A stretch of DNA of 64,000 nucleotides from Antedon mediterranea (GCF_964355755.1 NC_092673.1:24859648-24923647), one strand, 5' to 3'. Shown: positions 6,551 to 60,400, counted from the stretch's first letter. Numbers and translations: made by a program. Notes: a model not told the origin generated them from the sequence alone.

Positions 6551-7649
6551 TTAAGGACATGGTGCGACTGAAAATAAAAAGAAAAAAAACGATTCAATGA
6601 ACATTCTAAATAAAATAAAACTCCATCAACCGAAAAATCAATTTTTTTAAAGCTATTTTAATAACATTATGATTAATAAAGATATCACTTCAAATCAATG
6701 CATTCAGTCAAATAGAAACAACATTCTTAAATATCATCATTATTGTTTTTCTCACAAATATATTCAAAAGTTATTAAATAATATTACAGGAATTAACCGA
6801 TGTTCAATCATCAATCAATTAACTTAAGTGTTAAACGTAAACGAAAAACTATATACATCTTACCATAAGGGCAACCTCTTTTTCCCTTCTTCTTCTCTAT
6901 TTTCTTCTCTGTTTCCTTTTTTTGGTTCTCTATTTCCTTTTTTTGCTTCTCTATTTCACTTTCTTTCTCGTCTTTGTAATTCAATAAACATCCCATTAGT
7001 TTTCTTGAAGCCAGTATTTCCCAAACAGGATAACAGACATCTTTCATTTCAACATCTAAAAAAAAATTATATCTACTATACAAGAATTCCATTTGATTAG
7101 ATTAATTAATTCGTTTTACCCCGGAAAAGATGTATCGTTCACAACGAACTCGGATATTCCGGTTCGGAGACCAGAAAAAGAAGCAACATTGGTTTAGTGT
7201 TCCAGATTCCGTACGGATGGATTTGAAACGGTGCACGATTTCGGATCCAATGGTCGAAAGCTATTTAATCGCACTGAAATTAACTTCTACCCAACCATAG
7301 AAAACAAAATAATCTACTATAAAATATTACCTTTACCTTCTTTTAAAAATATATTTAACTAATATGAACTTTTAAAACCAATGTGAAACTATGCAACACG
7401 AAAACAAAACTCTCACGAAACTCTCATCGGGTCGTTCCAGACGCATGTGGGTACTGGATTAGATTTACTGATTAAATAGGGGTATCTTAACATTTTATCA
7501 TCAGACATTGTCTAACCATTCAAAGAACAAAAGTAAATTTAAATATATTTACCATTATTATGTATCTGGACGTTGTTGAAAATTCCAAAAGCATAACAAC
7601 CGTTGATCATCAGCGACAAAAGAGCAAATGCAATCATTCTGGTCCTCAT
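6551..7649 (-). CDS. Secreted cyclic-peptide precursor, paralog A (101 aa); predicted mature GCPYVAPCP
   Basis: Exons 7649-7553, 7055-6864, 6567-6551; GT-AG, phase 1/1. MRTRMIAFALLSLMINGCYAFGIFNNVQIHNN / DVEMKDVCYPVWEILASRKLMGCLLNYKDEKESEIEKQKKEIENQKKETEKKIEKKKGKRGCPY / VAPCP*. Confidence 0.85.
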
Positions 7650-7915
7650 TTTAGTTGATTTACACAGCAATACACAATGTAGAATAAAGTAAACTTCTCA
7701 GTTGAAGCAATACTCTGGAAATGGTCAGTTTCACTCAAACTTTACTTGTTATAACAACATCTTCAAATGATAATAATGTATAATTTAAACGAACGGAATA
7801 ATGCCACGTGATGTCTAAGTGCGTTTCTTCATAAAGTACATATATTATTTATTATTATATCATCATGATAATGGTCTATTCTATTATTAATAATTAGGAA
7901 ATCCGTTTTACAAAT
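7650..7915 (-). promoter_or_regulatory. Conserved 5'UTR/promoter block of the peptide family with CACGTG E-box (representative copy)
   Basis: The same ordered motifs lie upstream of nearly every ATG. CACGTG at 7805, 27040, 31055, 34566, 37016, 41714, 45143, 48259, 53007 and 60537; CACATG at 50244. Confidence 0.6.
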
Positions 7916-8279
7916 TTCTCAAACCGAAATTAGAGTAAAATAACGCAATCAACGTATAGTTTGTCCGAACGATGGCACATATTTTTTTCGACAATTCCAG
8001 CTGTCCTAACCAAAATTACGACATGGAACCGGGGCTGATTAAAAAAAAAGACAACAGGTTATCAAAATACTGAAAAAGTAATATGTTTGCTTCCATTACA
8101 CAATGTTGCACAGCGCCTTAAGGTTGATTCCCATTTGAACGTAACGCAACGACGTAGGCGCAACGCAAGCGAATTGACCAATCACAAGCGACAGTTCGGA
8201 TGGCCCATCGATAAGTTTTGTCCGGTTTATTATTCCAAATGTATTATCACGAACTGCAATTAGTAAAACCATGAACAAT

Positions 8280-8555
8280 ACTATCAACACCAACACTTTC
8301 ACCACCAACATCATCATCACCTACACCATCATCACCATCATCACCAACACCATCATCACCACCATCACCACCATCACCACCACCATCACCACCAATACAA
8401 ACAACACCATCATCACCACCAATACCAACAACACCATCATCACCACCATCACCACCATCACCACCAATACCAACAACACCATCATCAACACCATCACCAA
8501 CAACAACAACACCATCATTCATCACCACCACCAATACCACCATCAACACCATCAC
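8280..8555. repeat. (CAC/CAT/CAA)n low-complexity trinucleotide tract
   Basis: Direct reading; similar tracts at 16130-16478, 22920-23072, 23497-23648, 27930-28290 and 31265-31400, mostly just beyond the poly(A) block of a paralog. Confidence 0.9.
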
Positions 8556-18027: not shown

Positions 18028-19354
18028 AACGTTACATCGTCGTCGTATTGTCTGAAGAAGAAGGATCAGGAGGAAGAGGAAAAGGGAAACATGGTGCGGC
18101 TGAAAACAAGAAGAAAGGAAAACTCTAAATAAAATAAAAATCCATCAACTAAAAAATCAACGTTTTTAAAGCTATTTTAATGACATTATGATATATATAT
18201 ATATATATCACTTCAAATCAATGCATTCAGTCAAATAAAACCAACATTTTTAAACATCATTATTACTTTTCTCACAAATATTATATATAATTTTATATTT
18301 TTATTGATATGAGTGGTGTTTAGTAACTTAAAAAAATAATAATCCCATAACTTTAAATTAATTTGAATGCATTTTTCTCTCAAAAACGCATACACTTCTG
18401 CTTAATGCGTGACAAAATGTGGTCACGCATGACGTGTTTTTTCAAAAAGCGTGTTTCAGTAAAAATCACTTTGAAATGCGCCCGTCCCGCATGATGCGAG
18501 ACAGTTGGTAACTATGAGACCAACTATCAAACTAAAAAAAAAAAACATCAATATTGAAAAATCAACGTTTTTAAAGCTCGATATCAAATCAATGCATTTG
18601 TCAGCCCAATAAAATCAACATTTTTTAAACGTCATAGTGTTTTTTTCATTAAAAAGTTATTTGGCTAAATATTACAGGAATTAACCGATGTTGTTATTAA
18701 TTATACAGTCAGTTTACTCAATATAAAGCTCTGTCTACACTATCAAACTTTATGTGACAACGATTAATGCATTTTTAAATCTATTCATAAGGACACGAAA
18801 AAGCTGAAATTGCAAAAATAAAAAAAATGTTGAACAAAATCAACTCCGTGGATTGAGTACAACATAATATTTAAAAGCCTACTAAATAAATCAACAAATG
18901 CCTCAATCGAAATAAACTTACCATGTCTAGTAATTGCTTCTTTTTAGAAGCAACACCAGCTAAGCGGCCGTTTGTTCTTTTCGAATGAATAACATAGGAA
19001 ACGCATGAATCCGTTATTCAAACATAGCATATTAGAAAATAGTGTAATACTTTCTATTTCATTTGATTTATTTCAATTAATAAACTTGATGAAATAAAAC
19101 AATTAAACAGATTAAATTAACTAATTTCATAAATTCTTAAAATAAATAAATCCTCAAAAAGCTATCATAATGGTAATATGATTCAATCAGTTTATTTAAT
19201 TAAATCATAACATCAAATCAAGTTGCGTTACATTAATTCAAACAAATAAAACAGAAAATAACTTTAATGTCTTTTTGTGTTTCATTCTGATGCAATAATT
19301 AAATCTTTAGTAAATATTGTATAACTTACTGGATAGACATAATGGTTTACGCGG

Positions 19355-21163
19355 TTGTCTCTCCAGTTCTTTTCTTTTTTTCTCAGCTTTGTTAGTCAAA
19401 ATAATAATGACAAGAAACAGGTTAGTCTTGAGATCAACAATGAATATGTTCATGATAAGAAAGAAGTTGCTGAAGAGTTTAATTCGTACTTCACCAACGT
19501 TGCTGGAGAGCTAGTAAACAAACTTGACCCTCCTAGTAATACTTATAACTTGGAACATGTCAATGTCTTTTACAGTAGCAAAGGTGTCTTTCCTAATGAT
19601 TTTTCTTTCATAGAATTATCTGAAGATAATGTTCTTAAAGCTTTGACACAATTATCGACGAGTAAAGCTACCGGAATAGATACTCTACCAGCCAAATTCT
19701 TCAAAGATGGGGCTTCTGCAATAGCAAAACCATTAACTCATATTATTAAGTTGTCCTTCACATCCGGTATTGTACCCAAAGAATGGAAATTAGCGAGAGT
19801 CATCCCAATTCACAAAAAGGGTAGTAAAACGGTGGTAGGTAACTATCGTCCGGTGTCTATACTCTCGGCTTTTTCTAAAGTTGTTGAAAGACTAGTACAT
19901 GACCAATTGATGGAATACCTTAATTCTAAATCACTTATCTATGATTTCCAATGTGGGTTCCGAGCAAATTTTTCGACAGATCTTTGTTTAATTCACCTAA
20001 CTGACCATATTAAAAAGAACTGGGATAAAGGTAATTTAACAGGTATGATAGTCTTAGACCTACAAAAGGCTTTCGATACTGTAGACCATCAGATTTTACT
20101 AGGCAAAATGAGAGCATTAGGATTGTCCCAAACAGTAATAGGTTGGTTTAAATCATATTTAACAGATAGATGGCAGGTAGTTGATAATTGTGGTACTCTT
20201 TCAACGTGGAAAAAAATAACATGTGGGGTCCCTCAGGGGTCAATATTGGGCCCACTGTTGTTCTTAATGTATGTGAATGATATGGAATCTGCATTGAGTA
20301 GTAAACTGCTCCTTTATGCCGATGATTCTGCTATAGTTGTATCTGATAAAAGTGTCGCCAATATACAAAATGTATTGTCAAAAGAATTAAAATCTATTAA
20401 TTCTTGGTTATTAGATAATAGATTGTCATTGCATCTAGGCAAAACGTATTCAATTCTATTTGGATCTAAACGTAAACTCAGAAATCAACAAGAATTGAAA
20501 GTTACATGCAATGATTATATAATCACAAACAAACCTACAGTAAGTTATCTAGGACTTGAACTCGATAACAATCTAACTGGAGATTATATAGGTAAAACAG
20601 TTATAAAGAAAGTAAACTCAAGGGTAAAATTTTTATATAGAAATAGAAAGTACTTAACTTTCAGAGATCTTAAGTTACTAGCAAATAGTTTGGTGTTATG
20701 CCTTTATGATTATGCTTGTAGCGTGTGGTACTCTGGATTAAAAAAAACATTAAAAGTTAAATTGCAAACTGCACAAAATAAGACGGTCAGATGTATTCTT
20801 GGTCTTGAACCAAGGGATCACATTGGGGCTAATGAATTAAACAAACTGAATTGGCTCCCAGTAGACTTAAGAGTTAAACAGATAAAACTTTGTCACATGT
20901 ATCGTATTATTAATGGATTAAGCCCTACGTTTATGAATGATGGTATTAGTAGAGCAAATGTAATTCACCAGTACAATACTAGATTTGCAACTCAATCAAT
21001 TTATAGACCATATATAGGTAACCACTCCCAAACAACCTTTGTTAACACGGCAATAACGTCATGGAATCACCTGCCAAAATTGATACAGTGTTCAGAAACC
21101 ATCAATCAATTCAAAAGAAATATCAGGAAACATCTCAAAGAGGTTATGCTTGAAAGATTATAA
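19355..21163 (+). CDS. LINE ORF2 reverse transcriptase (5'-truncated; the first ~15 codons are host sequence)
   Basis: 602-aa ORF with the complete non-LTR RT motif set. Confidence 0.85.
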   Translation: MSLQFFSFFLSFVSQNNNDKKQVSLEINNEYVHDKKEVAEEFNSYFTNVAGELVNKLDPPSNTYNLEHVNVFYSSKGVFPNDFSFIELSEDNVLKALTQLSTSKATGIDTLPAKFFKDGASAIAKPLTHIIKLSFTSGIVPKEWKLARVIPIHKKGSKTVVGNYRPVSILSAFSKVVERLVHDQLMEYLNSKSLIYDFQCGFRANFSTDLCLIHLTDHIKKNWDKGNLTGMIVLDLQKAFDTVDHQILLGKMRALGLSQTVIGWFKSYLTDRWQVVDNCGTLSTWKKITCGVPQGSILGPLLFLMYVNDMESALSSKLLLYADDSAIVVSDKSVANIQNVLSKELKSINSWLLDNRLSLHLGKTYSILFGSKRKLRNQQELKVTCNDYIITNKPTVSYLGLELDNNLTGDYIGKTVIKKVNSRVKFLYRNRKYLTFRDLKLLANSLVLCLYDYACSVWYSGLKKTLKVKLQTAQNKTVRCILGLEPRDHIGANELNKLNWLPVDLRVKQIKLCHMYRIINGLSPTFMNDGISRANVIHQYNTRFATQSIYRPYIGNHSQTTFVNTAITSWNHLPKLIQCSETINQFKRNIRKHLKEVMLERL

Positions 21164-21364
21164 TTTATATTTATATTGTGACTACATGTGTTATTGTTTA
21201 TTGTAAATGTTTATTCTTATGGTGTTTTTTATCCTTAAGGGCCACAATGGAAATAAGTTTGACCTTTGGTTACTTTTTTGTGTTACCCTGAATTCATTCT
21301 TTGTATTTTTTTTTTATTTTGTGTTATTTTATGAATTCGAATAAAGAAATGAAAAAAAAAAAAA
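19401..21364 (+). mobile_element. 5'-truncated LINE (L2/CR1 group, Crack/Daphne-like) with uninterrupted reverse transcriptase
   Basis: ORF to 21163 with NYRPVSIL, QCGFR, LDLQKAFDTV, GVPQGSILGP, LYADD and YLG motifs; no endonuclease domain; AATAAA and A-tail ending at 21364. Confidence 0.92.
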
Positions 21365-22872
21365 TCCTTCAGGATAACTAACATTACTTATTCCAACCTC
21401 TGCAATGCAACAATACAGCTATATAATTAATCTATCATAACACTGTTGCATTACCATTAAGGATGTCCCCCACAAATATGAAACTGATGAAGAGTATTAA
21501 AATAAAAATAAAACAATCTTTTTTTTCAGGGGACAATGAAGATGAACTAAATCAGACTTTGAATGGGTTATTTTGTAGTTTTAATAAATGTAATCACTTC
21601 TGTAGAAAAAAATGTTTTCACTTATAAAATGACAAAATAAATGGTTACAGTAAATTCAACCAAAAAGTTGGCAGCCAATTTGACTATTTTTTATTTATAA
21701 TCAATAACTTTTTTATAAATATTTAATTTTTTTATATCTATTATGTGACATTAAAATGACATATTCAACAAACATATTTTCAATAATTATTTTTTCAGGA
21801 GATAATACATCTTTAATGATAATGCTAGGTCTTGTATTTATACCACAACCCGATCCTGCAGCTGTTTCTAGTAGATTGTAACTGATTATTGACAGTGATA
21901 ACATGTATTAAAATTACTGAATACACACACTCGTATCAGTTACAATTTACCTAGAGACACCTGTAGAATCCTGATCTCTTTGATATTGTACAATATTATC
22001 AGGTTGTCTTGAGTTAAGGCCGCTACACTTAGGACGATCGACGATAAATAGGTACACTTAGGCCTATATTTGTATTGAATAAAACAAAAGAAATTATAAA
22101 GAATTTCATTCTATTATATGATAACGATTTATGCTGTGTTTGATAATAATATTGTTCGATCGATATCGTTCTAGTATAAAAAGTATAGACGTTTTCAATT
22201 TTACTCAGACATTCATACTTGGCGACACGTTTGTTTTCATTAACAAATTATCTGAGTATAGCAAGTGCGGTGCATGTATCCGATTGATATTCCTTTTTGA
22301 TCGGTTCATAGGCCACCCCACCGATCAACACCCCAAAAAAGACAAACAAAGAATATTAATAATTTACCATTATCCTGGCTTTGTGTGGTGGAATTCTTAA
22401 CAGAAAAACAGTGGTTGATCACCAGCAAAAACACAGGGAATGCGATAATCCTGGTCTCCATTTTATAACAGTAGGCCTACACAGCAATACAATATAATAT
22501 AAACTACGCTTGAAATGGTTGATTTCACTAACAACTCTCTTTTTAAATCATTATGATGTATAATTCAAACGAACGGGATACAATGTTAGGTACAATCTTT
22601 TAATTTAATCGAGTAAATGATTTGTTATTATTATATGCATCCATCATCATCATAGAAGTAAGTAGCCTACATTTGGTCGTCTATTATTAATAGGGAAATC
22701 TGTTTGACAGGTTATCAAAATGCTGAAAAAAGAAATATGTTTGCTTCCATTACACAATGTTGCACAGCGCTTTAAGATTGATTCTCACTTGGACGCAAAG
22801 CAACGACGTAGGCGCAACGCAAGCGAATTGACCAATCACAAACGACATCCCATCGATAAGTTTTGTCCGGTT

Positions 22873-24746: not shown

Positions 24747-26889
24747 TTAAGGACAAATAGACGGCACTGAAAAATTGAAAATAAACGAAAAATATATTCA
24801 ATCAACACTAAATGCATTGTTAAAGCCATTTTAATAAAGTTATGGTAAATATATAATACAAATATCACATCAAATCTATATGCATTTATTCAAAATGTTT
24901 TATAACAAGAATCGTTATTGTTTTCTCATAAATAATATTCAAAAGTTATTAAATATTGCAGGAATTAACCAATGTTGTTATTGTTAAATAATAATTGTAA
25001 CCAATTTTTAAGCTCTATCTACACTATCCAACTTATGTTACAACAAAATGTGATGTGCCCATAAATAGACATGATGATGATCACTACCAAATGTTGGCAT
25101 GTCACTACCTTATTTGGGCACATTACACTTTGTTGTCGAACTAATTTAATAGTGTAGACAGAGCTTTAGATTTAAACGCAACACATCTTACTTAATTGGC
25201 ATTGTGGTTTTATTGGTGATGGTGGTGGATTTTCTCCGTTCTTCTTCCCCCTTTCTTTCTGTATTTCGTTTCTTTCTTTCTGTATTTCATTCCTTTCTTT
25301 CTCCTCTTCGTAATTCAAGAAACATCCCATCAGTGTTCTTGAAGCCAGTATCTCCCAAACAGGATAACAGACATCTTTCTTTCCAACATCTAAAAATCCA
25401 ATAATAGGCCTATATTTATACAAGAATTCCATTTTACTAAATCAAATTAATTAAGGCCGTGTTTCCGCAGCAATAACAAACATCTGTTAATTTTTCAACC
25501 AATCAGATAATAAATAAATGTGCGCCTGAGAAAATAAAGAAAGATCAGTTATTACCGAATACAACCCAACTTTCGTTGCTGTTGGTTTTGATGAAATAAA
25601 ATAAAATAAATATACAATTTGTCCTTCAAGTCAAATGTTCACAATTATTATTATTATGGAAGCGGCTAAACTCCTTTTCACATGAACTTTATCTGTTAAT
25701 TACCGGTTAATTTTTTTCGGTTAATGTTTGGCTGGTGAAAACACGGCTTAATTGTTCCGGGATGAAGTGCAATAGTTAAAAATAAGCCCGGATTCCGGTT
25801 GGGTGACCGAAAAAAATATTAGTAAAAAATGGTTTAGTGTTGGACACATACGGATTTGAACCGGTACGTGGGATGTACGATATCGATCAATGGAAACAAT
25901 CGTACAGATGTGATCTAACCAAAATGTAAGTTCCGCTCGTTCTGAACCACACATGATAACAAGAAAATCTACTATACACTATAACCTTTTTTTTTCTTAG
26001 GATAATTATTTAATAATAATTTATGTTTTACAATGAAAGCGAATATTATAAATCTCTAAAAAATAAAACCGTAGAAGTGAAAACGTTGACACAATCAACA
26101 TTATATCAAATAAAAAAAAAATATCAAAATAAATAGTAGTAAAAAGGAATTATTCATCAGTATTAGGCATACTTGCGAATCTATTCATTTTCTTAGAAAT
26201 ATTTGGAACTTTGGTTCTAGGAAAAATTCAGTATTTTGTTTCAAATAGTTAAAGATGTATTTTCCCCCTGCAAAACTAATTATTTAAATTGTTGAATATG
26301 CCATTTTAATGCCACATAATAGTTATCCACTTTTACCAAAAATTAGATTAAAAAAATAATTATTTACCTGAAAAAACTGTAATTTAATGCAAAAAAATTA
26401 ATCAAATTGGCTGCCAGCCAATGGATTTTTGGTTGAATTTAACCATTTATTTTGTCATTTTATAAGTGAAAACACTATTTCTTTTTGTTTTTACTACAGA
26501 AGTGATTAACTTGATTAAAACTACAAAATAACCTATCTTAATTGTTCATGTTTTTGAGGAACTATTATTAGACTGATGATTAAGATCAGCTAGAGCAAAC
26601 CATGAGAACGAACATAAATTGAACTGGGTCCATGAATAAAATCATAAAATATGTTTCTTTCATTTCAGAAATTAGTCCGCGTCCCATATAAGCCCTGAGC
26701 TTATCAGATTTACTGATTAAATAGAGGTGTACTTAAATATTATGATCAAACATTGTCTAACTAGTAAAAATACAAAATTAAAATACATATACCATTATTA
26801 TGTATCTGGACGTTGTTTAAAATTCCAAAAGCATAACAATCGTTGATCATCAGCAAAAACAGAGCAAATGCAATCATTCTGGTCCTCAT
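24747..26889 (-). CDS. Secreted cyclic-peptide precursor, paralog D (104 aa); predicted mature NGENPPPSPIKPQCQLMPSICP
   Basis: Exons 26889-26793, 25389-25192, 24766-24747. MRTRMIAFALFLLMINDCYAFGILNNVQIHNN / DVGKKDVCYPVWEILASRTLMGCFLNYEEEKERNEIQKERNEIQKERGKKNGENPPPSPIKPQCQL / MPSICP*. Confidence 0.85.
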
Positions 26890-33266: not shown

Positions 33267-34424
33267 CTATCGTTTACCACATGGAGCTGGGGCTGAAAAA
33301 TCAAAAAAAAAAGTTGTCGGCTCATGAATAAATCAATTAATGCATTCAGCATTCATAATATGTTTAAAGCTCTACACTATAAAACTATATGTGAACAAAA
33401 ATGTGATGTGATGAACACTACCGTATTTGGGCACATCACACTTTTTTGTCACTAACTAATTTTGATATTGTAGACAGACTTTAACAAACCATAAAATGAC
33501 AAATTGATAATACTGTACATTCAAATGAAGCTATGAAACTATGAAAATATTTTTTCTTAAATAAATTATATTGCATGCAATTAATAAAATCGATTGATGC
33601 AGTTAATCTTAAGCCGTTTTTTTTTTCAGTAGGTGAATTTGTTTGCGATAATCGAAAGCGTCTGCTTATACACATGCGTATTAATGTTTCCATCTTTCAA
33701 ATCCCTCTCTACGCATGCGTATAAGCTGACTCTTTCGATTCGCGCGAACAAATTCGCCTAGTGGAAAATAGGCTTAATGCATTAACGTGTTCAAAATATT
33801 GAAATTTATTTACATACAGACACATTCCGGTTTCCCTCGTTTGAATGTTTTATCCTTCTGTATTTTATTTCTTTCCTTCTGTATTTCATTTCTTTCTTTC
33901 TCATCTTCGTAATTCAATAAGCATTTCATCAACGTATTCGAAGTCAATATCTCCCAAACAGGATAACAAACATCATTTATTTTAACATCTGTAAAATACA
34001 ATATCATCTGACTCATTTATAATTATCATTTTACTATTAGGCTATTTTAAATAACTTATTTCGATATGTTATTTTTCTTCAGAAAAATGAGCCTGCGTCT
34101 CACGTGCCGTGCCTTGGTCTTGAATGGCTGATCAAAAGTACGTCGCAGGTAGCAAATATCATGCAATTTATAACAGCCCATCAATACCCACCCGCAAAAG
34201 TATGTATATAATAATTTACAATTATCCACAAACCTATTAATATTCCAAAAACCAAAACAGTTAATTTTGTTATCCATAAAACATCGTTCAATTTAATACA
34301 TATCTCACCCAAAAATGTATAACTTACTATTATTTATCTCCACGTGGTAGAAAGGTAATCCAAAAGCATAACAACCGTTGCTAAGCAGCAAAAACAGAGC
34401 AAATGCAATCATTCTGGTCCTCAT
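33267..34424 (-). CDS. Secreted cyclic-peptide precursor, paralog F (97 aa); predicted mature GKPECVSPAPC-amide
   Basis: Exons 34424-34328, 33988-33818, 33292-33267. MRTRMIAFALFLLLSNGCYAFGLPFYHVEINN / NVKINDVCYPVWEILTSNTLMKCLLNYEDEKERNEIQKERNKIQKDKTFKRGKPECV / SPAPCGKR*. Confidence 0.85.
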
Positions 34425-35813: not shown

Positions 35814-36874
35814 CTATCGTTTAGGACATAAAACTGAGCCTGAAAAAAAAAATCATCAATCGAAAATTTATAGCAATTACATTCATTTTTTCCAGGCACC
35901 TGCCTTTATTTCATCTGTAGGCCATGGGCCCATAGATTTACATTATATACAGTAAGGTTGACTCTCTCCTATTTACAATACATTGACAGATTAACATAAG
36001 CATTTACATCTGTTAGTAGTTAGTTAGTAAATAAATAAAATAAATAATTCAGTTTAGTTCAGTTCATCACAAAAATAAATAAATCAAATTATTTATATAT
36101 GTATAAAATCAAATAAACCACATGCTCTTATACATTATATTTGATTTGAAGTTATTCAATAATATAATTAATAACGATTTCTTTTTCAAGGATAATTATA
36201 ATCAATTGTAAACGCAAATCACTAGAAATCTTACTTTGGCATGTTGGTTTTTTTCTTTTCTCCACTATTTCTTTTATTTCTTTCTGTATTTCGTTTCTTT
36301 CTTTCTGTATTTCATTCCTTTCCTTCTCGTCTTCGTAGTTCAATAAACATCTCGTCAACGTTTTTGAAGTCAATATCTCCCAAACTGGGTAACATATATC
36401 ATGAATTTTAACATCTGTAAATACAATTTAAAAAATTACAAATAATGTTATTTGAATGATTAATATTCATTGATTTCGTTTTTTATTCTTCAGAAAAATT
36501 TGCTGACTAAATTTAAAAGTACGTGGGTTGCTGAATATTTTGTTATCCATCAAATATAATCAAACTCGTCTCAACCTCCCCCACCAGCCAACCCCCACCC
36601 CAAATAACAATCGTAGTATGCCTACTGTATATATTAAGTTTCCATTATCCATAAACCTATTCGTATTAAAAAGCAGAACAACTGATGATTGTGTCCATAA
36701 AACATAGTCCAACTCTTCCTATCCACCCCACCAACCTTTCATCCGAAAAATCGTAACTTAAATAATTTAAAATTTACCATTATTTAAATCCACCTGGTAG
36801 AACGGTAATCCAAAAGCATAACAACCGTTGCTAAGCAGCAAAAACAGAGAAAATGCAATCATTCTGGTTCTCAT
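35814..36874 (-). CDS. Secreted cyclic-peptide precursor, paralog G (100 aa); predicted mature (KK)PTCQSSVLCP
   Basis: Exons 36874-36778, 36414-36235, 35839-35814. MRTRMIAFSLFLLLSNGCYAFGLPFYQVDLNN / DVKIHDICYPVWEILTSKTLTRCLLNYEDEKERNEIQKERNEIQKEIKEIVEKRKKPTCQ / SSVLCPKR*. Confidence 0.85.
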
Positions 36875-40464: not shown

Positions 40465-41568
40465 TTAACATAGACCAGTGACTGAAATATTACAGAAAAA
40501 ATACAAAAGATTCAATCCACATTGTGAATATTAATCAACAAATAATATCGATCGAACAGCCATAAATTTCGTTAAGCTATAATATGATTTAATGAGGTTA
40601 TTGTTTCAAAATTCATTCATTCAATGAAATAAAGAACGATTATTTAAAGTTCTTCAATTATTCTCATATTTGTTGCTGTAATCATATTGAAACTAAACTA
40701 TAATTAATAAAGGTAAAATCAAATATTGCATCTTGTACATGGGTCACATTTAAATGAATTCAATGCCCTAATAATGCTATGTAATTAATTTAAACTTTTA
40801 AAACAATAGAAAAAAATCACTAATCTTCACTGAATCAACTGTGAGTATTTACAAGCAAAAATATACTTACAGTTGCACCCCGGTTCGTTTCGTTTAATTG
40901 ATTCGTTTGGTTGACCCTTTCCCTTCGGTATTATTTCCTTCGGTATTTCGTTTCTTTCTTTCTGTATTTCATTCCTTTCTTTCTCCTCTTCGTAATTCAA
41001 TAAACATCCGATCAGTGTTCTTGAAGCCAGTATTTCCGAAACAGGATAACACATATTATTCTTTTCAACATCTAAAAAATACAATATTAATTATTACAAA
41101 ATATAACAATAAAATTAATGTATTATTATTATGAATGTTACTGTTATTACAAATAATATTCATTTCGAAATGTTCTTTTCTTCTTCAGAAAAATGGGTTT
41201 TCGTCCCAAGTGCAGTATCCATGCCTTGGTGTTGACTGGCTGATTACAACTACGTGATAGACAGATATTTCTTTGTATCTTCTACCTCATCTCAGCCCAC
41301 CAGCCAACCCCCACAACCGCCAAAAAATCAAACATTGTAAGTATATAACAATTTACTATCTTCCAAAAACTTAACCAAACGTATTCTAAAAACCAGAAAA
41401 AATTTGATTATCAGAAATTATTGTCCAATACTTCTCTACCACCCACATGAAGAAAAGAAAATCTTAAATTTATAATTTACCATTATTTATCTCAACGTGG
41501 TAGAAAGGTAATACAAAAGCAAAACATCCGTTAATCAGCATGAAAACAACAATCATTCCGGTCCTCAT
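40465..41568 (-). CDS. Secreted cyclic-peptide precursor, paralog H (101 aa); predicted mature NEPGCNFTGLC
   Basis: Exons 41568-41481, 41071-40871, 40481-40465. MRTGMIVVFMLINGCFAFVLPFYHVEINN / DVEKNNMCYPVSEILASRTLIGCLLNYEEEKERNEIQKERNEIPKEIIPKGKGQPNESIKRNEPGCN / FTGLC*. Confidence 0.85.
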
Positions 41569-44197: not shown

Positions 44198-45005
44198 CTA
44201 ACATATAGCTGGGGCTGAAATAAAAACATTTTTTTTTTTAATATTAAAAGAGTTCACAGATTTGTTTTCAATCAATGACACAATAAATGAAACAAAAATG
44301 TAGATCTAATATCTTACAGTGACATTCAACATCATTTTTTTCTCTGTATTTCTTTTCTTTCTTTCTCGTCTTCGTAACTGCGTAAACACTCTGTCACCTT
44401 TTGAAAAGTCTCCAACTCCCGAGCAGAATAACAGATATCATCTGTTCAATCTCTAAAAACACAATTAATGATAATTCAAGTATATTAATTCTTCATTACT
44501 ACTGGTGTTGTTTTATTTGTTTACCAATATAATAATGTGGTTAGGTCACCATCCTAAGATTCAATTGCAAACATTCGGGAATCTAAAAACAAAATACTGT
44601 AACACCAGCATAAATCAAAACAGCATTAAACATGACGATGTAGACTTGCCCCAAGTCTGTATTGTATTTTTTTTATTTTATTTTTTTTATTTCGACCGCG
44701 ATTTTTGTCTGAAATCCAAACTCAAGTAATACACGTATGAAACGCCATATGTGCAAAAATATTTATATTTTTACTAATAATATTAAGAAAAAACTCCGTC
44801 TGGAGCCCAGACTAATGACGATGATAACAATACATAAACGAAAAATCATTGAAGAGATATGGAAATAAAATTGTAAATTAAAAAAAAAACACAAACAATA
44901 TTTACGAAAATTCGAGCTTTGTGGGAGGAGGAGGTTGTTTCTAAAAGCAAACGAACTGTTGATTACCAACAAAAACAGAGCAAATGCAATCATTCTGGTC
45001 CTCAT
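44198..45005 (-). pseudogene. Paralog I, frameshifted exon 2; reconstructed mature NDVECHSPAIC
   Basis: Exon 1 45005-44906 MRTRMIAFALFLLVINSSFAFRNNLLLPQSSNF is intact. Exon 2 44452-44318 has a -1 near its start and a +1 in an A7 run; the family frame reads DDICYSARELETFQKVTECLRSYEDEKERKEIQRK, the used frame hits TGA. Exon 3 44214-44198 SPAIC*. Confidence 0.75.
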
Positions 45006-46841: not shown

Positions 46842-48148
46842 CTACTGATTTTCTTTTGCTTTTGCTTTATGTTCTTTTTGTCCTTTTTCCGGCATACAAA
46901 TAGCTGAAGACCCTGAAATAAAAAGAGAAATGAACATATAATATAATAAACAATTTTATAATTTAATCAAAAAATGCATGAATCGAAAATATCAACAGTT
47001 GTCATGAGCAGCTTAACAAATCACATTAAATAATACATTCAACTCTATTAATAAATCCTTTTATCGAAAAATGTGTAGATCAGAATGATTCATATCAGTT
47101 ATAGATTAAATTCAATCAAATATAACTATATTATTTTACAAATACGTTATTTCATAAGTGGTAGTCAATTTGAAGGTATTTTGATAAACAGATTTGTGCT
47201 TATTCATTAGGGAGGTTTCGCAACCTTACGAATACGATAACGAAAACGGATACGTCATACATTTGTGAAACTTTTGAGCTGATCCCCATTTCATATTCGT
47301 AAAGTGTATTCGTGATGACGAATATCACCAGTCATATTCGTAACTACAAAACGAATATAATTTTTGATCTATTTAGCACATTTTGCATTTGAATCAGGAA
47401 TGATTCATGATTATAATATAATACTAGATTTAGGCCTATTGAAAGTAATTTACTAAAGTAATTTACTAAAATGCCAAGTCAATTTTGATAAATAGCAGTT
47501 TTTAAAGTCCTCACTCGCTTTGATGTTACGCTTCGCTCAAATTTACCGCAGTCATATTTTGAACGCGCCTCAATATTTCGTTGCCATGCGAAACAGATTT
47601 TTTTATGGCTTACGAAAACGAATACGTGTCCGTGACGTATCCGTTTTCGTTATCGTATTCGTAAGATAGCGAAACCTCTCTAATAAACGACACATAAACG
47701 AAAACAAAATATTAGATATAATATCTTACCACATCCTTTTTTTATCGGTATTTCTTTACTTTTTTTCTCCTCTTCATAGTCCAATAAACATTTTATCAGG
47801 ATTTCTGAATTGTCTAACTCTCGAATAGGATAACAGATATCCTCTGGTTCAACATCTAAAACACAATAATGTTAATTGTTAATAATTAAATTGTTAGAAT
47901 ATATATAATATAAAAGACCATAATTAATTGTAAAAATTACACCAGCATAAAAAAAATGACGATGATAAAAATACATAAAAGGAAAGAGATATGAAAATAA
48001 AATTATAAATAAAAACAGAAAAAAAACCAAAAACAATATATTATTTACCAAAATCAGAGCGTTGTGGGCCTGGGAAGTTATTCCAAAAAGCAAAGGAACT
48101 GTTGATTACCATAAAAAACAGAGAAAGCGCAATCATTCTGGTCCTCAT
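46842..48148 (-). CDS. Secreted cyclic-peptide precursor, paralog J (98 aa); predicted mature GCGSSAICMP plus basic tail
   Basis: Exons 48148-48049, 47855-47730, 46912-46842. MRTRMIALSLFFMVINSSFAFWNNFPGPQRSDF / DVEPEDICYPIRELDNSEILIKCLLDYEEEKKSKEIPIKKGC / GSSAICMPEKGQKEHKAKAKENQ*. Confidence 0.8.
47209..47681. mobile_element. MITE family e in intron 2 of J
   Basis: About 48-bp TIR agggaggtttcgcaaccttacgaatacgataacgaaaacggatacgtca and its near-perfect reverse complement. Confidence 0.85.
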
Positions 48149-49200: not shown

Positions 49201-50111
49201 TCATCGTCCAGGACATGGACCCGTGACTGAAAAATTGCAATAAACAAGAATAAGGAACCGTATACATCGAATTTGAAATTATCAAAGGTTTCCGAGAATG
49301 CGCTATTATGTATGAAATGTTTCCTCAGCAGCAGTAGTGCGAACATCATTGTATTGTTGTCGCATACCAGACTCGTCGGAACCAAACCGAGTGCGTTTTG
49401 TCTTATTAATCGTAGCGTTGCTGTTTTCAATGCCCAAGAATCTCCCGACTTTTTATAGAAGAACATTTAGGCCTACTTTAGAACAATAGGGTATTATTAA
49501 TTAATTAATTAATTAATGTTGTATTTTGTTAGCGGATGCATGATTATCAAAATGAGGCTTTCCGGCCGCGATTTTTTTCGCGGCTGGAACTCATCTTTAT
49601 ACACGCCATACATTATAAAAGTTCGTTCACTGTAAACCGAAGGTCCGACCCGGCCTCCGGGTTGAGTTACGTTTTTCATTCACACATACAGGATCCGGAA
49701 TAAGACTGTATACTGTACTCTTGCATTTTAGAGGTAGTCCCTAACTGATGAATCTCCGTGCGACCACCTACCGTAAGCGGCCACCTCAGCTCCCTTAACG
49801 GCTCATGTGAAAAGTGAAATTACAATTTAATTTGAATTTTAAATCTCGGGAATTGTTTTGGTAAATATTCTCAATGAATTTACCTTGAATTGAATTTACC
49901 TTGAATCGCCACAGTCTATTTTCTTTCGAATGTTGTGTAATTCCACATGTATTACCAAAAAAAACACATTAAAATAAATAGATATAACAAAACTAAACTA
50001 AATTTATTTACCAATATCCGAGCGTTGTGGGCCTTGGAAACTATTCCAAAAAGCAAATGAGCTGTTGATTACCAACAAAAAAAGAGCAAACGCAATCATT
50101 CTGGTCCTCAT
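49201..50111 (-). pseudogene. Paralog K: intact exons 1 and 3, no recognisable canonical exon 2
   Basis: Exon 1 50111-50012 MRTRMIAFALFLLVINSSFAFWNSFQGPQRSDI; exon 3 49226-49201 xTGPCPGR*; no CYP..C exon in between. Confidence 0.65.
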
Positions 50112-51939: not shown

Positions 51940-52881
51940 CTAATAATTATGTCTTTTATCATAAGGACATTGACCGGTACCTGAAAGAAAATAAGAAAGA
52001 AGACAAATGAACAGAATCAGTAACATTTAAAACATTTAAAACTACCTTGCACTGATTAGTGCAAATTGTCATGGCTGTTTTACATTATCATTTTTGCTTA
52101 TTTTATTTCCTTTTATATTTTTCTCCATTGAGATCCAGCCTCTGATACCTCTGATATACTTTTTTATAAACAACTATTGTTGAAAAACATTTAATATTTT
52201 AATTATTAAAACAGTTTTTGATATTATATGAATAATAAATAAAACACAATGATGAACTAAATCGTATTTATAAATTAAAATATTAGATATTTTATTAGTG
52301 ATTTTCTATATTGACTGTTTTCTGCATGTACGTATATTGTTATTATTTCTGCAGTGTATATAAGAGGAATTTCTAATGTATTTTTATATTGGACCAAATA
52401 AAGAATTGAATTGAATTGAATAATGTCTTACCGAACGGGCCACAGCCTTTTTTTTTCTCTGGTATTCTTTTTCTTTCTTTCTCCTCTTTGTAATCGTGTA
52501 AACATTTCATCACAATTTTTGAAGTCTCTAACTCCCGAGTAGAAAAACAGATATCTTCTGTCTCAACCTCTAAAAATACAATAATGAGAATTAAAACTAA
52601 GTGTACTATTTTCTTTTTTTACAGTCCTAATTAATTCATATGAATCCGTTGCTATGGGGCCTATTTGTTTCCATTGAGGATCATAGCATATACTGAAACT
52701 ACAACTATATAAAACCATTTTCAACAGAATTAAAGATATAAAAATGACCAAAAAATGGCCTATAAATATAAATTAATTTACCAAAATCAGAGCGTTTTGG
52801 GCCTGGCAGGTTGTTCCAAAAAGCAAATGAGCTGTTGATTACCAACAAAAACAGAGCAAGCGCAATCATTCTGGTCCTCAT
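51940..52881 (-). CDS. Secreted cyclic-peptide precursor, paralog L (92 aa); predicted mature GCGPFGTGQCPYD
   Basis: Exons 52881-52782, 52569-52432, 51980-51940. MRTRMIALALFLLVINSSFAFWNNLPGPKRSDF / EVETEDICFSTRELETSKIVMKCLHDYKEEKERKRIPEKKKGCGPF / GTGQCPYDKRHNY*. Confidence 0.85.
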
Positions 52882-54406: not shown

Positions 54407-55039
54407 TAGTCGAATTTAGCGGGGTCTGCCAGGACTAAGGTAATGCATAAGGGGTCTGTAATAGACCATTCGGTATGTAGTCGAATTTAGCGGGGTCTGC
54501 CAGGACTAAGGCAATTCATACGGGGTCTGTAATAGACCATTCGGTATGTAGTCGAATTTAGCGGGGTCTGCCAGGACTAAGGCAATTCATACGGGGTCTG
54601 TAATAGACCATTCGGTATCTAGTCGAATTTAGCGGGGTCTGCCAGGACTAAGGCAATGCATAATGGGTCTGTAATAGACCATTCGGTATCTAGTCGAATT
54701 TAGCGGGGTCTGCCAGGACTAAGGCAATGCATAAGGGGGTCTTTAATAGACCATTCGGTATCTAGTCGAATTTAGCGGGGTCTGCCAGGACTAAGGCAAT
54801 TCATAAGGGGTCTGTAATAGACCATTCGGTATCTAGTCGAATTTAGCGGGGTCTGCCAGGACTAAGGCAATTCATAAGGGGGTATGTAATAGACCATTCG
54901 GTATCTAGTCGAATTTAGCGGGGTCTGCCAGGACTAAGGCAATGCATAAGGGGTCTGTAATAGACCATTCGGTATCTAGTCGAATTTAGCGAGGTCTGCC
55001 AGGACTAAGGCAATGCATAAGGGGGTCTGTAATTCGGTA
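54407..55039. repeat. Tandem repeat, about 71-bp unit x about 9
   Basis: tagtcgaatttagcggggtctgccaggactaaggcaat(g/t)cataaggggtctgtaatagaccattcggtatc starting at 54407, 54478, 54549 and so on; no unique spacers. Confidence 0.95.
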
Positions 55040-56391: not shown

Positions 56392-59300
56392 TTAGCATGG
56401 TCCTGTTACTGAAATATTGCAAAAAAATGTGTTTTAATGAACAAATTCATCACTAAAAAAACTTAACATTTCTTTAAGTTTTAAGTTTATTTCTTATCGT
56501 AATTGTTACCGTAAATCTTCTAAATTTTAACCCTGGGTTATTATTCTTTAATTGTTTTTTAGGGTGGGTTACTATTAGAAGGGGGTTACTATTAGAGTAG
56601 TGGGTTACTATTACTAATCTTAAATTAGGCACCTGAAAATAGTAACCCACCCCAACTTTTCCGGTCAGCAAATCATAGCAAAATAATAAAACAGTACAGA
56701 TAAACTCAAAAACACTCAATCCTCCCCACTCCCGAGATCAACATGCATTATCTCCTTGTTTTTAAAATACGGCTGCATCATAAACGACCAGTCTTCATAA
56801 ATGTCATTTTGTCAATAGTTTTTGTGAATCTAATATTAACCCCGATGGGTTACTATTAGAGTAGTGGGTTGTTATTATTATAGATTAACTTATAACGTGC
56901 GTTACTATTAGAAGGAGGGTTACTATTAGAAGGGGGGTTACTATTAGAGTGTGGGTTACTATTAGAGCGTGGGTTACTATTAGAGTGTGGGTTACTATTA
57001 GAGTGTGGGTTACTATTAGAAGGGGGGTTACTATTAGAGTGTGGGTTACTATTAGAGTGTGGGTTACTATTAGAAGGGGGGTTACTATTAGAGTGTGGGT
57101 TACTATTAGAAGGGGGGTTACTATTAGAAGGGGGGTTACTATTAGAGGGGGGTTACTATTAGAGTGTGGGTTACTATTAGAAGGGGGGTTACTATTAGAA
57201 GGGGGGTTACTATTAGAAGGTGGGTTACTATTAGAGTGTGGGTTACTATTAGAAGGGGGGTTACTATTAGAAGGGGGGTTACTATTAGAGTGTGGGTTAC
57301 TATTAGAAGGGGGGTTACTATTAGAGTGTGGGTTGTTACTTTTATAGATTAACTTATAACGTGCGTTGCTATTAGAAGGGGGTTACTATTAGAGTGTGGG
57401 TTGTTATTATTATAGATTAACTTATAACGTGCGTTGCTATTAGAAGGGGGGTTACTATTAGAAGGGGGGTTACTATTAGAGTGTGGGTTACTATTAGAGT
57501 GTGGGTTACTATTAAAGTGTGGGTTACTATTAAAGTGTGGGTTACTATTAGAGTGTGGGTTACTATTAGAGTAGTGGATTATTATTATTATAGATTAACT
57601 TATAACGTGCGTTACTATTTCAAAGGGGGTTACTATTAGAGTGTGGGTTACTATTAGAGTGTGGGTTACTATTAGAGTGTGGGTTACTATTAAAGTGTGG
57701 GTTACTATTAAAGTGTGGGTTACTATTAGAGTGTGGGTTACTATTAAAGTGTGGGTTACTATTAAAGTGTGGGTTACTATTAGAGTGTGGGTTACTATTA
57801 AAGTGTGGGTTACTATTAAAGTGTGGGTTACTATTAGAGTGTGGGTTACTATTAAAGTGTGGGTTACTATTAAAGTGTGGGTTACTATTAGAGTGTGGGT
57901 TACTATTAGAGTGTGGGTTACTATTAAAGTGTGGGTTACTATTAGAGTGTGGGTTACTATTAGAGTAGTGGATTATTATTATTATAGATTAACTTATAAC
58001 GTGCGTTACTATTAGAAGGGGGGTTACTATTAGAGTGTGGGTTACTATTAGAGTGTGGGTAACTATTAGAGTGTGGGTTACTATTAGAAGGGGGGTTACT
58101 ATTAGAGTAGTGGGTTACTATTAGAGTGTGGGTTACTATTAGAAGGGGGGTTACTATTAGAGTGTGGGTTACTATTAGAAGGGGGGTTACTATTAGAGTA
58201 GTGGGTTACTATTAGAGTGTGGGTTACTATTAGAGTGTGGGTTACTATTAGAGTGTGGGTTACTATTAGAAGGGGGGTTACTATTAGAGTAGTGGGTTAC
58301 TATTAGAGTGTGGGTTACTATTAGAGTGTGGGTTACTATTAAAGTGTGGGTTACTATTAGAGTGTGGGTTACTATTAGAAGGAGGGTTACTATTAGAGTG
58401 TGGGTTGTTATTAGAGTAGTGGATTATTATTATTATAGATTATCTTATAACGTGCGTTACTATTAGAAGGGGGGTTACTATTAGAGTGTGGGTTATTATT
58501 AGAGTGTGGGTTACTATTAGAGTGTGGGTTACTATTAGAAGGGGGGTTACTATTAGAGTAGTGGGTTACTATTAGAGTGTGGGTTACTATTAGAAGGGGT
58601 TACTATTAGAGTGTGGGTTACTATTAGAGTAGTGGGTTGTTATTATTATAGATTAACTTATAACGTGCGTTACTATTAGAAGGGGGGTTACTATTAGAGT
58701 GTGGGTTACTATTAGAAGGAGGGTTACTATTAGAGTGTGGGTTACTATTAGAGTAGTGGGTTGTTATTATTATAGATTAACTTATAACGTGCGTTGCTAT
58801 TAGAAGGGGGGTTACTATTAGAGTAGTGGGTTGTTATTATTATAGATTAACTTATAACGTGCGTTACTATTAGAAGGGGGGTTACAAGAGTGTGGGTTAC
58901 TATTAAAGTGTGGGTTACTATTAGAAGGGGGTTACTATTAGAGTGTGGGTTACTATTAGAAGGAGGGTTACTATTAGAGTGTGGGTTACTATTAGAGTGT
59001 GGGTTACTATTAGAAGGGGGGTTACTATTAGAGTGTGGGTTACTATTAGAGCGTGGGTTACTATTAAAAGATTTACGGTATTGACTGCTTCTCAAAGCAG
59101 GGAAATGTAATTCTCCCTTTTCAAATAAAGTATAGTCACATCGCATCAATTTAATTCTACATTATTCAATCAAAGAAAATGAGATACTATAATTGTTATT
59201 TATTTAAGTTGTAATGAAATAAAGCATGTATGTTATTTTTGTTTTGTTCAATCTAACAAGACCGTATCAAGGGTGAGAACGAAGCCTTTTCCTGGCGTGC

Positions 59301-60400
59301 CCTTTTCATTTCTTTTCGGACTAGAGATCATCAGCAATAGTAATAATTGATAATGCTTAACTAGCCTATTATATTGCTTATAACGATGATGATTTATGCC
59401 TCTTTTGGTGACATAAGCTTCTATTTGTGTAAAAAAGAACCCCCTGTAGAAACCCTGAGTATCTGCTACTATAGGCCTAAAAAGTCACTTAAAAATAGAT
59501 AAAGGTATCTTACAATGACAAGAAACAGCACCGGCCCTCTTTTCCTCCAATCGCTGTATTGCTTTCTTGGCTTCGTAATTTACTATACATCTCCTCAGCG
59601 TGTCTGAAGCCCGTATCTCCGAATTAGAATAACAGATAGGCCTTTCAACATCTAGAAATATTATAATAATAATAATCATCATAACAATAACATGCCTAGA
59701 AGTATATTAATGATATTAAATAATATGCAGTAATCATAATAATAATTATATCTAAAATTTATTTTTTGTGTTTCTTTAAATTCTAATAATATTAGCATTT
59801 TATTGTCCTTACTGGTGAATCCGATCTTTAAGAAAATGTATTAATTTAAGTTTTATGATAGACTCTATTGCTGTCAAATAGCTCAATATTAATCAGTGTC
59901 GATTCATATTATACACCCCTGGGAAATGAATGCAACAAGCTCTTTGATCCTATAATGCATTTTAATAATTTAAATTGAATAACGGTTCAGATATCAGATA
60001 TTAAAACAAAAATTAGCAATCATTATTATTAAAATCAATTAATTCAAATACAAAATAAACAAAAATGTCAAACGTTTGAGCTAAAATCAAATAAGAAATT
60101 AAAGCAACATATTAGATATATTATTACATCCGTGGCTCTGTACATAGGATCTAATAACATCTTTATTAACTACGGTATCATTTATACAGTATTCAACTCG
60201 TCTCCAACACCCCGCCAAAAACCAATCACCAACCAATACACTCGAAATTAACAACCCACCAAAAAAAAAAAACAACCTAATAACACATAGATAAATAATA
60301 ATAATTTACCTTTAGCCCGACGTTCTATAAATATATTTCCAAACACAATATATGTGTTGATCAACAGAAAAAGCAGAGAAAATGCAGTTTTGTTACTCAT
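56392..60400 (-). CDS. Secreted cyclic-peptide precursor, divergent paralog M (81 aa); predicted mature AGAVSCHLTGPC
   Basis: Exons 60400-60310, 59651-59514, 56408-56392. MSNKTAFSLLFLLINTYIVFGNIFIERRAK / DVERPICYSNSEIRASDTLRRCIVNYEAKKAIQRLEEKRAGAVSCH / LTGPC*. Confidence 0.8.
56507..59080. mobile_element. TA-flanked TIR element (Tc1/mariner-type MITE) carrying an expanded minisatellite, in intron 2 of M
   Basis: taccgtaaatctt at 56507-56519 and aagatttacggta at 59068-59080 are exact inverted repeats. Confidence 0.7.
56847..59067. repeat. 18-bp minisatellite gggttactattaga(gtgt/aggg) with recurrent longer variant units
   Basis: About 2.2 kb of direct repeats interrupted by ttattattatagattaacttataacgtgc blocks. 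Confidence 0.95.

What the first reader, a model, noticed from the sequence alone, without database searches (positions are those of the whole stretch)
6551..59651. Intron 2 always splits the disulfide ring, and both introns are phase 1, giving combinatorial potential
Seen in sequence: in every copy with an exon 2, Cys1 of the mature ring lies 0-3 codons before the exon-2 donor, and Cys2 lies 3-5 codons after the split codon in exon 3. Ring size is x5 in A, C, F, G, H, I, J and M, x6 in D, and x7 in B, E and L. With uniform phase and orientation, any exon 2 can join any downstream exon 3 in frame. Inference: unequal crossover within intron 2, or read-through splicing, could create new rings from two half-ring modules.
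Basis: partly seen in the sequence, partly recalled or inferred. Interest (0 to 1): 0.7.

Follow-up and report, generated by a model that had tools for sequence, protein, structure and literature searches.

The report
Feather-star ring-peptide gene array
This is a tandem row of 13 related feather-star genes that likely release small, highly variable disulfide-ring peptides; an intron splits the ring in every copy that has the middle exon, most likely by simple inheritance from one ancestor, and the two copies with RNA evidence splice only to their own last exon, so mix-and-match rings are likely rare at most.

Summary
Thirteen minus-strand paralogues (A–M; five equal Antedon mediterranea RefSeq 'uncharacterized' proteins) have phase-1 introns. 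In 12 of 12 copies with an exon 2, intron 2 falls between the last two cysteines, with the stated ring sizes. C and I are broken; K lacks exon 2.

The shuffling inference is mostly unsupported. One inherited intron explains the shared phase. Intron 2 is among the least alike parts: 1 of 66 pairs shares ≥100 nt at ≥80%, against 25 of 66 for exon 1 plus flank. Exon 3 co-descends with exons 1 and 2. RNA contig lengths fit cognate junctions exactly for F and G; the other 11 copies were not examined. Mosaicism exists but lies mainly in the conserved signal and exon-2 core.

Three leads remain: G may carry a D/E-type Cys1 half (triplet p≤5e-5, AU p=0.37); a deletion behind C broke inside an intron 2; and L exon 2 could read through to K exon 3. 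No relative outside this species was found. Function is untested.

The parts
6551..7649 (-). Copy A: exon 1 CDS 7649-7553, exon 2 7055-6864, exon 3 CDS 6567-6551; ring x5 (2+1+2)
   Evidence: model identical to P0004 = XP_071946729.1
9140..11632 (-). Copy B: exon 1 11632-11536, exon 2 9757-9566, exon 3 9168-9140; ring x7; short inverted-repeat element in intron 2
   Evidence: identical to P0001 = XP_071946730.1
12633..12969 (-). Relic of a B/D-type copy: 3' part of intron 2 and 3' UTR, with acceptor and exon-3 coding bases missing
   Evidence: 74-77% to B and D over about 390 nt; alignment
18032..18761 (-). Relic fused behind C's stop: B/D-type then A-type intron-2 sequence and an orphan A-like exon 3 (18099-18032); the junction shares 9 nt with both the ancestral 3' UTR start and the intron-2 element
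18781..22461 (-). Copy C (broken): exon 1 22461-22368, exon 2 21399-19330 interrupted by a reverse-transcriptase element (open frame 19343-21163 on +), exon 3 18803-18781; ring x5
   Evidence: RVT_1 E=1.7e-35
24747..26889 (-). Copy D: exon 1 26889-26793, exon 2 25389-25192, exon 3 24766-24747; ring x6
   Evidence: identical to P0002 = XP_071946731.1
28988..30913 (-). Copy E: exon 1 30913-30811, exon 2 29494-29303, exon 3 29007-28988; ring x7
   Evidence: identical to P0003 = XP_071946732.1
31591..31740 (-). Degenerate solo exon 1 with 5' flank
   Evidence: 68-79% to exon 1 of 12 copies; frame broken
33267..34424 (-). Copy F: exon 1 34424-34328, exon 2 33988-33818, exon 3 33292-33267; ring x5, ends Gly-Lys-Arg-stop (likely amidation signal); transcribed and spliced cognately in run X1
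   Evidence: X1 contig stops at 33292 with 227 further letters = predicted cognate length 227
35814..36874 (-). Copy G: exon 1 36874-36778, exon 2 36414-36235, exon 3 35839-35814; ring x5; spliced cognately in X1; candidate mosaic (3' half of exon 2 and donor D/E-like, rest F-like)
   Evidence: identical to P0008; X1 contig with 71 further letters, 70 predicted plus one ambiguous base
40465..41568 (-). Copy H: exon 1 41568-41481, exon 2 41071-40871, exon 3 40481-40465; ring x5; intron 1 F/G-like but exon-2 core B/D/E-like
44198..45005 (-). Copy I (broken): exon 1 45005-44906, exon 2 44452-44318 frameshifted with an internal stop, exon 3 44214-44198
   Evidence: DNA contigs of X2, X3, X5 match 43408-44499 with 0 differences (possibly the window's own sample)
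46842..48148 (-). Copy J: exon 1 48148-48049, exon 2 47855-47730, exon 3 46912-46842; ring x5 (0+1+4)
49201..50111 (-). Copy K: exon 1 50111-50012 and exon 3 49226-49201, no exon 2 in the 785 nt between; exon 3 keeps its Cys, frame and acceptor; no AATAAA within 1.5 kb, ATTAAA at +213
51940..52881 (-). Copy L: exon 1 52881-52782, exon 2 52569-52432, exon 3 51980-51940; ring x7 (3+1+3); its donor lies 3.2 kb upstream of K's exon 3
56392..60400 (-). Copy M: exon 1 60400-60310, exon 2 59651-59514, exon 3 56408-56392; ring x5; 18-bp satellite (56897-59070) in intron 2

Best explanation
This is a tandem array of 13 three-exon genes that likely encode secreted precursors, each predicted to be cut at a dibasic site to release a short disulfide-ring peptide, and the intron inside the ring is most likely one ancestral intron copied with each duplication rather than a working shuffling joint. 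Shown: exon structure, phases, Cys positions, a dibasic site 1-13 residues before Cys1 in 12 of 12 copies, broken copies and relics, and cognate splicing of F and G. Inferred: signal peptide (exon 1); a pro-region with its own C-x14-C disulfide and a charged helical spacer (exon 2); convertase cleavage; Cys1-Cys2 pairing. The rings likely diversify inside each gene by substitutions and whole-codon indels on both sides of the intron. Whole-gene duplication and deletion change copy number, and patchy gene conversion likely homogenises the signal and exon-2 core. Most likely role (about 0.5 given this model, from the family's pattern only): ligands aimed at targets outside the animal (defence or chemical signalling), because the ring interior is hypervariable, the family looks species-restricted, and it is littered with dead copies.
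For: Intron 2 lacks cross-copy homology: 9 of 66 pairs with any match, 1 of 66 with >=100 nt at >=80%. Median longest perfect match is 10 nt, against 24 for flank+exon 1 and 15 for exon 2 (55 pairs). Exon 3 plus 100 nt tracks exon 1 (rho 0.57, p 0.0005) and the exon-2 core (rho 0.52, p 0.0015) across 11 copies. Trees of exon 1 and exon-2 core share their starred groups I+J+L and F+G. X1 contigs run through the F and G junctions with 227 and 71 upstream letters; cognate models predict 227 and 70, the other nine models give 82-289 but neither value, and a co-existing chimera would cut them to 0-3. Natural rings are x5 or x7 in 11 of 12, against 65 of 144 for free pairing (permutation p 0.007); A/C and J keep x5 through opposite changes on the two exons. 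12 of 13 copies have their own AATAAA within 1.5 kb of exon 3. Ring interiors average 20% identity among the 8 x5 rings, against 60% inside the C-x14-C core. Conversion signal: 0-3 synonymous differences in the 6 pairs tested among A,B,D,E,H over exon-2 codons 1-31, against 5-8 in the 5 pairs with F or G.
Against: RNA evidence covers only 2 of 13 copies, one run, and contigs drop rare forms. The ring-size result is weak once kinship is counted (5 of 6 distinct states odd, p 0.07). The two ends of intron 2 show no correlation (rho -0.07, p 0.64), and exon-2 tail against exon 3 is only rho 0.23, p 0.08: saturation hides any old swap. 7 of 106 triplets pass Bonferroni for mosaicism, including G with a tract that ends at the intron-2 donor. 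Signal peptide, cleavage, disulfide pairing and function were not tested. The structure model is poor (mean pLDDT 53).
Confidence: 0.68

Rival explanations
1. Half-rings have been reassorted at the DNA level: conversion tracts or unequal exchanges that start in the conserved exon-2 repeats and end in intron 2 occasionally pair one gene's Cys1 half with another's Cys2 half; G would be such a product.
For: G shares informative sites with F over D 43:8 in flank+exon 1, 11:4 in exon-2 codons 1-26 and 10:3 around Cys2, but 1:16 across the exon-2 repeats, Cys1 and donor (p<=5e-5, 106 triplets). The first 31 nt of G's intron 2 are 90% like E's. D+E+G is rejected upstream (AU 1.7e-7) and downstream (0.006) but not in the tract (0.33). 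A past deletion behind C has one end inside an intron 2. B and D still share 84% over 405 nt of intron 2.
Against: On the tract itself F+G is not rejected (AU p 0.37) and F has the longest branch (0.57), so fast change in F explains the pattern as well. Blocks were chosen after the pattern was seen, and only 7 of 13 copies were tested. The repeats are purine-rich and low in synonymous capacity. The deletion behind C made no new ring. Intron 2 offers almost no homology today.
Confidence: 0.2
2. Read-through splicing makes new rings in RNA. The one favoured case is L exon 2 joined to K exon 3, because K has no exon 2 and its exon 3 is therefore the next gene's second exon; the product would be an x7 ring.
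For: In frame, 3206 nt apart. Matches the usual read-through pattern (PMC5209911 passage). K's exon 3 keeps its Cys and acceptor although K alone would give an unpaired Cys.
Against: L has its own strong acceptor 452 nt away (19 of 20 pyrimidines) and AATAAA at +99 and +145. For the other 10 neighbour pairs the next acceptor is an exon 2. No chimera survived assembly at F or G exon 3. K's exon 3 may be intact simply because the loss is recent.
Confidence: 0.08
3. The C-terminal ring is not released: the product is one secreted helical protein of about 60-85 residues with two disulfides (or cross-paired Cys), and the variable tail is a binding loop.
For: The C-x14-C pair is invariant in 10 of 10 copies, more than a disposable spacer usually needs (recalled). 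The spacer is Lys/Arg-rich, so dibasic sites arise easily. The model shows continuous helix 37-85 (low confidence).
Against: A dibasic site sits 1-13 residues before Cys1 in 12 of 12 copies despite unalignable tails; F and K end in Gly-basic-stop, an amidation-type ending.
Confidence: 0.17

Closest known systems
[quoted passage not shown] 2022, PMC9793003; abstract, section 36, passages and a search of 7 supplementary files seen)
   Same: Same species; hydrophobic N-terminus, dibasic sites, two-Cys peptides (PCNP3, PCNP19).
   Different: Four family motifs found 0 times in the supplements. PCNP3 and PCNP19 carry the peptide at the N-terminus; here it is C-terminal and the genes form a 13-copy array.
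Echinoderm somatostatin/allatostatin-C-type precursors (PMC7536072, passages seen)
   Same: C-terminal disulfide ring after a long pro-region; SS1 genes have a phase-1 intron in the C-terminal part.
   Different: They have a phase-0 N-terminal intron and FxP or FWK/IWK cores; here intron 1 is phase 1, neither motif is present, and there are 13 variable copies.
SpTransformer (Sp185/333) clusters of the purple sea urchin (PMC5491942 passages; PMC8634487 abstract and outline)
   Same: Tight echinoderm tandem cluster, conserved leader exon, variable downstream exon with internal repeats, short-repeat tracts between genes, duplication, deletion and recombination.
   Different: No sequence relation found; SpTrf genes have two exons and mixed orientation; here three exons, one orientation and small Cys-ring products.
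Exon shuffling through phase-1 introns in cone-snail toxins and sponge aggregation factors (PMC10501145, PMC13542836, PMC5400394; passages seen)
   Same: Uniform phase-1 introns make exon exchange frame-safe; the sponge locus is also a tandem cluster.
   Different: The documented toxin cases join a signal or 5' exon to an intact peptide, and PMC13542836 expects fusions not to split the peptide. The claim here is a swap through the middle of the ring, which is not shown.
Theta-defensin half-ring pairing and protocadherin/Dscam combinatorial splicing (recalled, no call)
   Same: Concept of products assembled from interchangeable halves.
   Different: Those systems have dedicated machinery or shared constant exons; here nearly every copy has its own last exon and poly(A) signal.

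Membership tests
Exon-shuffling module system (half-ring swap) | Same intron phase at the joint in all members | tested here: met
   phase 1 in 13 of 13 and 12 of 12; 0 stops in 144 non-cognate pairs
Exon-shuffling module system (half-ring swap) | Homology in the intron to support crossover | tested here: not met
   1 of 66 intron-2 pairs with >=100 nt at >=80%
Exon-shuffling module system (half-ring swap) | Incongruent ancestry on the two sides of intron 2 | tested here: inconclusive
   G triplet p<=5e-5 but AU p 0.37; overall co-descent rho 0.52-0.57
Combinatorial cis-splicing locus | Non-cognate junctions in RNA | tested here: inconclusive
   cognate only for F and G in contigs of one run; 11 copies not examined; contigs drop rare forms
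Combinatorial cis-splicing locus | Variable units lack their own terminal exon and poly(A) signal | tested here: not met
   13 of 13 have an exon 3; 12 of 13 have AATAAA within 1.5 kb
Neuropeptide-type precursor (PCNP criteria of PMC9793003) | N-terminal signal peptide | tested here: inconclusive
   hydrophobic first 20 residues seen in 13 of 13; no predictor was run
Neuropeptide-type precursor (PCNP criteria of PMC9793003) | Peptide bounded by a dibasic site | tested here: met
   12 of 12 copies with exon 2, 1-13 residues before Cys1; background of basic residues is high
Neuropeptide-type precursor (PCNP criteria of PMC9793003) | Neural expression and detected mature peptide | not testable with these tools
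   no tissue or peptidome data
Somatostatin/allatostatin-C type | Phase-0 intron in the N-terminal part | tested here: not met
   phase 1 against PMC7536072 passage
Somatostatin/allatostatin-C type | FxP or FWK/IWK core in the ring | tested here: not met
   absent from the 12 rings
SpTransformer family | Sequence homology and two-exon structure | tested here: not met
   searches return only this species' own copies; one search adds two weak unrelated hits; three exons
Cationic antimicrobial peptides (definition recalled) | Strong net positive charge of the mature peptide | tested here: not met
   predicted net charge -3 to +3 in 12 copies; activity itself untested

The most novel reading that the evidence does not exclude
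An undescribed crinoid peptide family builds new disulfide rings from two exon-encoded halves: copy G arose by pairing a D/E-type Cys1 half with an F-type Cys2 half, and K survives as a spare last exon that L reaches by read-through.
Probability: 0.18. Interest if true: 0.65.

Novelty: new member of a known kind. Interest (0 to 1): 0.36.

Why it matters
The family appears undescribed: the protein searches found no relative outside this species, and the paper searches and the crinoid neuropeptide supplements showed no account of it. Ten intact, fast-changing ring-peptide genes in a feather star are a ready target for peptidomics, in a group whose secreted peptides are little studied. The shuffling claim would matter more: the documented toxin cases keep the peptide whole, so a proven swap through the middle of a disulfide ring would be a new variant. 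The data make this rare at best, but they name two exact places to test it (G's ancestry; the L-to-K junction).

Tried and rejected
No whole genome was held, so other clusters in this genome could not be sought. No RNA holder was listed as such; X1 was judged RNA only from contigs that stop at exon-3 acceptors. The joints table was filled by repeat copies (for example 25079-33416, between the elements in D and F intron 2, also seen in DNA runs); I rejected these as evidence of chimeras. Pfam: no curated-cutoff hit for 6 exon-2 translations or 4 full proteins. PDB sequence search: best E 0.05, nothing credible. The 50%-representative search gave A itself and two weak unrelated hits (E 2e-4 and 9e-4). 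ESM Atlas for P0003: no feature hit, structure TM <0.5. The AlphaFold model was too poor for a fold search. H as a recombinant: synonymous sites and intron 1 suggest conversion, but AU tests did not reject either placement (p 0.089, 0.377). K as an exon1/exon3 chimera: its exon 3 scores F 28, G 27, I 24, too close to call. A recalled likeness to sea-urchin sperm-activating peptides could not be checked (0 papers). Earlier scan findings: none by place or sequence.
Full report
What is there. A protein search with B's exon 2 returned RefSeq 'uncharacterized protein [Antedon mediterranea]', a feather star. My spliced models of A, B, D, E and G are letter-identical to five such records; F, H, J, L and M were not found among the hits. 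Each intact copy encodes 81-105 residues: a hydrophobic N-terminus (exon 1); then a C-x14-C segment, a charged spacer partly built of 21-nt repeats, a dibasic site and Cys1 (exon 2); then a few residues with Cys2 (exon 3).

Observation check. All 144 non-cognate pairs are in frame. An independent acceptor scan recovered 12 of the 13 exon 3s and the orphan, plus 2 weak background sites. Three corrections apply. C is interrupted by a reverse-transcriptase element. I is frameshifted with a stop, and DNA contigs agree with the window there. Exon 2 carries a second invariant Cys pair, so which Cys pairs with which is inferred.

Is uniform phase surprising? No. Paralogues inherit their introns, so 12 copies are one event. 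A phase-1 intron near the signal-peptide end is the common state in secreted proteins (PMC1626468, abstract; PMC13542836, passages).

Test 1, substrate for crossover. Among the 12 copies with an exon 2, 9 of 66 intron-2 pairs have any BLAST match and only B-D reaches 100 nt at 80%. Flank plus exon 1 gives 65 and 25 of 66; exon 2 gives 53 and 20 of 55; intron 1 gives 11 and 0 of 66. The median longest perfect match is 10 nt in intron 2, 15 in exon 2 and 24 in flank plus exon 1. Spacers between genes in the A-F half share several hundred alignable bases, including CAC/ACC-rich tracts. Present-day unequal exchange should therefore fall in exon 1, the exon-2 core or the spacers, none of which splits a ring. 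That recombination needs long near-identity is recalled knowledge.

Test 2, ancestry of blocks. For 11 copies (C and K left out), trees of flank plus exon 1 and of the exon-2 core share the starred groups I+J+L and F+G, and AU tests of H's placement did not reject either side. Similarity in exon 3 plus 100 nt follows exon 1 (rho 0.57, p 0.0005) and the exon-2 core (rho 0.52, p 0.0015). The two ends of intron 2 do not correlate (rho -0.07), which I read as saturation and which limits the test. Mosaicism is present all the same. 2 of 495 triplets switch partner between exon 1 and exon 2 after Bonferroni. The 6 pairs tested among A, B, D, E and H differ by 0-3 synonymous codons over exon-2 codons 1-31, while the 5 pairs involving F or G differ by 5-8, although H's intron 1 is F/G-like. 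This points to conversion of the conserved parts.

The one candidate half-ring swap is G. Against F and D it sides with F before (43:8, 11:4) and after (10:3) a segment made of the exon-2 repeats, Cys1 and the donor, and with D inside it (1:16); permutation p<=5e-5, one of 7 of 106 triplets passing Bonferroni among 7 copies. The blocks were drawn after the pattern was seen. On the segment alone F+G is not rejected (AU p 0.37) and F has the longest branch. G is a lead, not a result. Separately, 20 nt behind C's stop the sequence becomes B/D-type intron 2 at a 9-nt shared word, followed by A-type intron 2 and the orphan exon 3. A deletion thus did break inside an intron 2, but it joined to a 3' UTR and made no new ring.

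Test 3, RNA. One run (X1, kind guessed) has contigs that stop exactly at F's exon-3 acceptor with 227 further letters, and at G's with 71; DNA runs give contigs that continue through introns. A de Bruijn simulation (k=31) of the 11 cognate models predicts 227 for F and 70 for G (one base fits either side), and other values for the other nine. If a chimera into the same exon 3 were present as well, the contig would begin 0-3 letters before the exon. So the junctions that survive assembly at F and G are cognate. The joined letters themselves were not displayed, contigs drop rare forms, and the junctions of the other 11 copies were not examined.

Read-through logic. Read-through usually joins the penultimate exon to the next gene's second exon (PMC5209911, passage). 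Here that is the next exon 2, which lies nearer than the next exon 3 in 10 of 11 neighbour pairs and leaves the ring cognate. The exception is L to K: K has no exon 2, so L's donor could reach K's exon 3 at 3.2 kb and give an x7 ring. L's own acceptor and poly(A) signals are strong, so I put this low.

Ring sizes. Natural rings are x5 or x7 in 11 of 12, while free pairing gives these in 65 of 144 (p 0.007). Counting only distinct states the excess is 5 of 6 (p 0.07). A/C and J keep x5 by opposite changes on the two exons, which suggests that the halves are tuned to each other.

How it likely works. Secretion, cleavage at the dibasic site (present 1-13 residues before Cys1 in 12 of 12) and ring closure would give 9-25-residue peptides of net charge -3 to +3. 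Ring interiors are 20% identical, the core 60%. Hypervariable product, conserved leader, dead copies and apparent restriction to one lineage fit outward-facing ligands better than conserved neuropeptides; this is inference from pattern only. The low-confidence model (pLDDT 53) shows helices at 37-48 and 50-85.

Known kin. No Pfam, PDB or Atlas relative was found. The family is not among the crinoid PCNPs by motif search of the supplements (figures not seen) and fails the somatostatin-type intron and motif tests. It behaves like SpTransformer-type and toxin-type arrays without being a member. The paper library lacks most subscription journals, so 'undescribed' rests only.

Verdict. Observation confirmed; interpretation partly supported. 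A new family of a known kind, with half-ring shuffling possible but unproven and probably rare. Interest 0.36.

Noticed in passing
window exon 1 of all copies, e.g. 7590-7649, 26830-26889, 34365-34424, 44945-45005: Signal-peptide codons differ by 0-3 synonymous changes even between distant copies (11 pairs), while their introns cannot be aligned: conversion or nucleotide-level constraint.
   Followed up: partly
window 8324-8516, 16284-16450, 23004-23042, 23580-23618, 27953-27988, 31294-31326: CAC/ACC-rich tracts sit in the spacers of the A-F half only, reminiscent of the short repeats that flank SpTransformer genes.
   Followed up: partly
window 22874-24017: Recent direct duplication of about 575 nt (97.6%) in the spacer between D and C.
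   Followed up: no
window intron 2 of B (about 9390-9550), D (25010-25170), F (33365-33485) and 18650-18761: The same high-copy short inverted-repeat element lies in intron 2 of three copies and in the relic behind C; it is the only long homology between B/D and F intron 2.
   Followed up: partly
window 28885-28928: E has a second, degenerate exon-3-like end about 80 nt downstream of its exon-3 start (77% to D's).
   Followed up: no
window 16485-18028: Element with inverted GC-rich 15-bp repeat arrays at both ends and a 22-bp array inside cuts off the orphan exon 3 from its 3' region.
   Followed up: no
window 38914-40275 (-) and 14626-15354 (-): Further reverse-transcriptase frames between genes (RVT_1 E 8.9e-32; a fragment below cutoff); X1 contigs cover the first.
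   Followed up: no
window 54405-55033 and 56897-59070: 71-bp (8.8 copies) and 18-bp (122 copies) tandem arrays; the second expands M's intron 2 to 3.1 kb.
   Followed up: no
window 1267-2021 and 2692-3441: Two 94%-identical copies of an element with a GTCT microsatellite.
   Followed up: no
window 48148-50111: K has no AATAAA within 1.5 kb of its exon 3, so its exon 1 could also serve as an alternative first exon for J, in frame.
   Followed up: no
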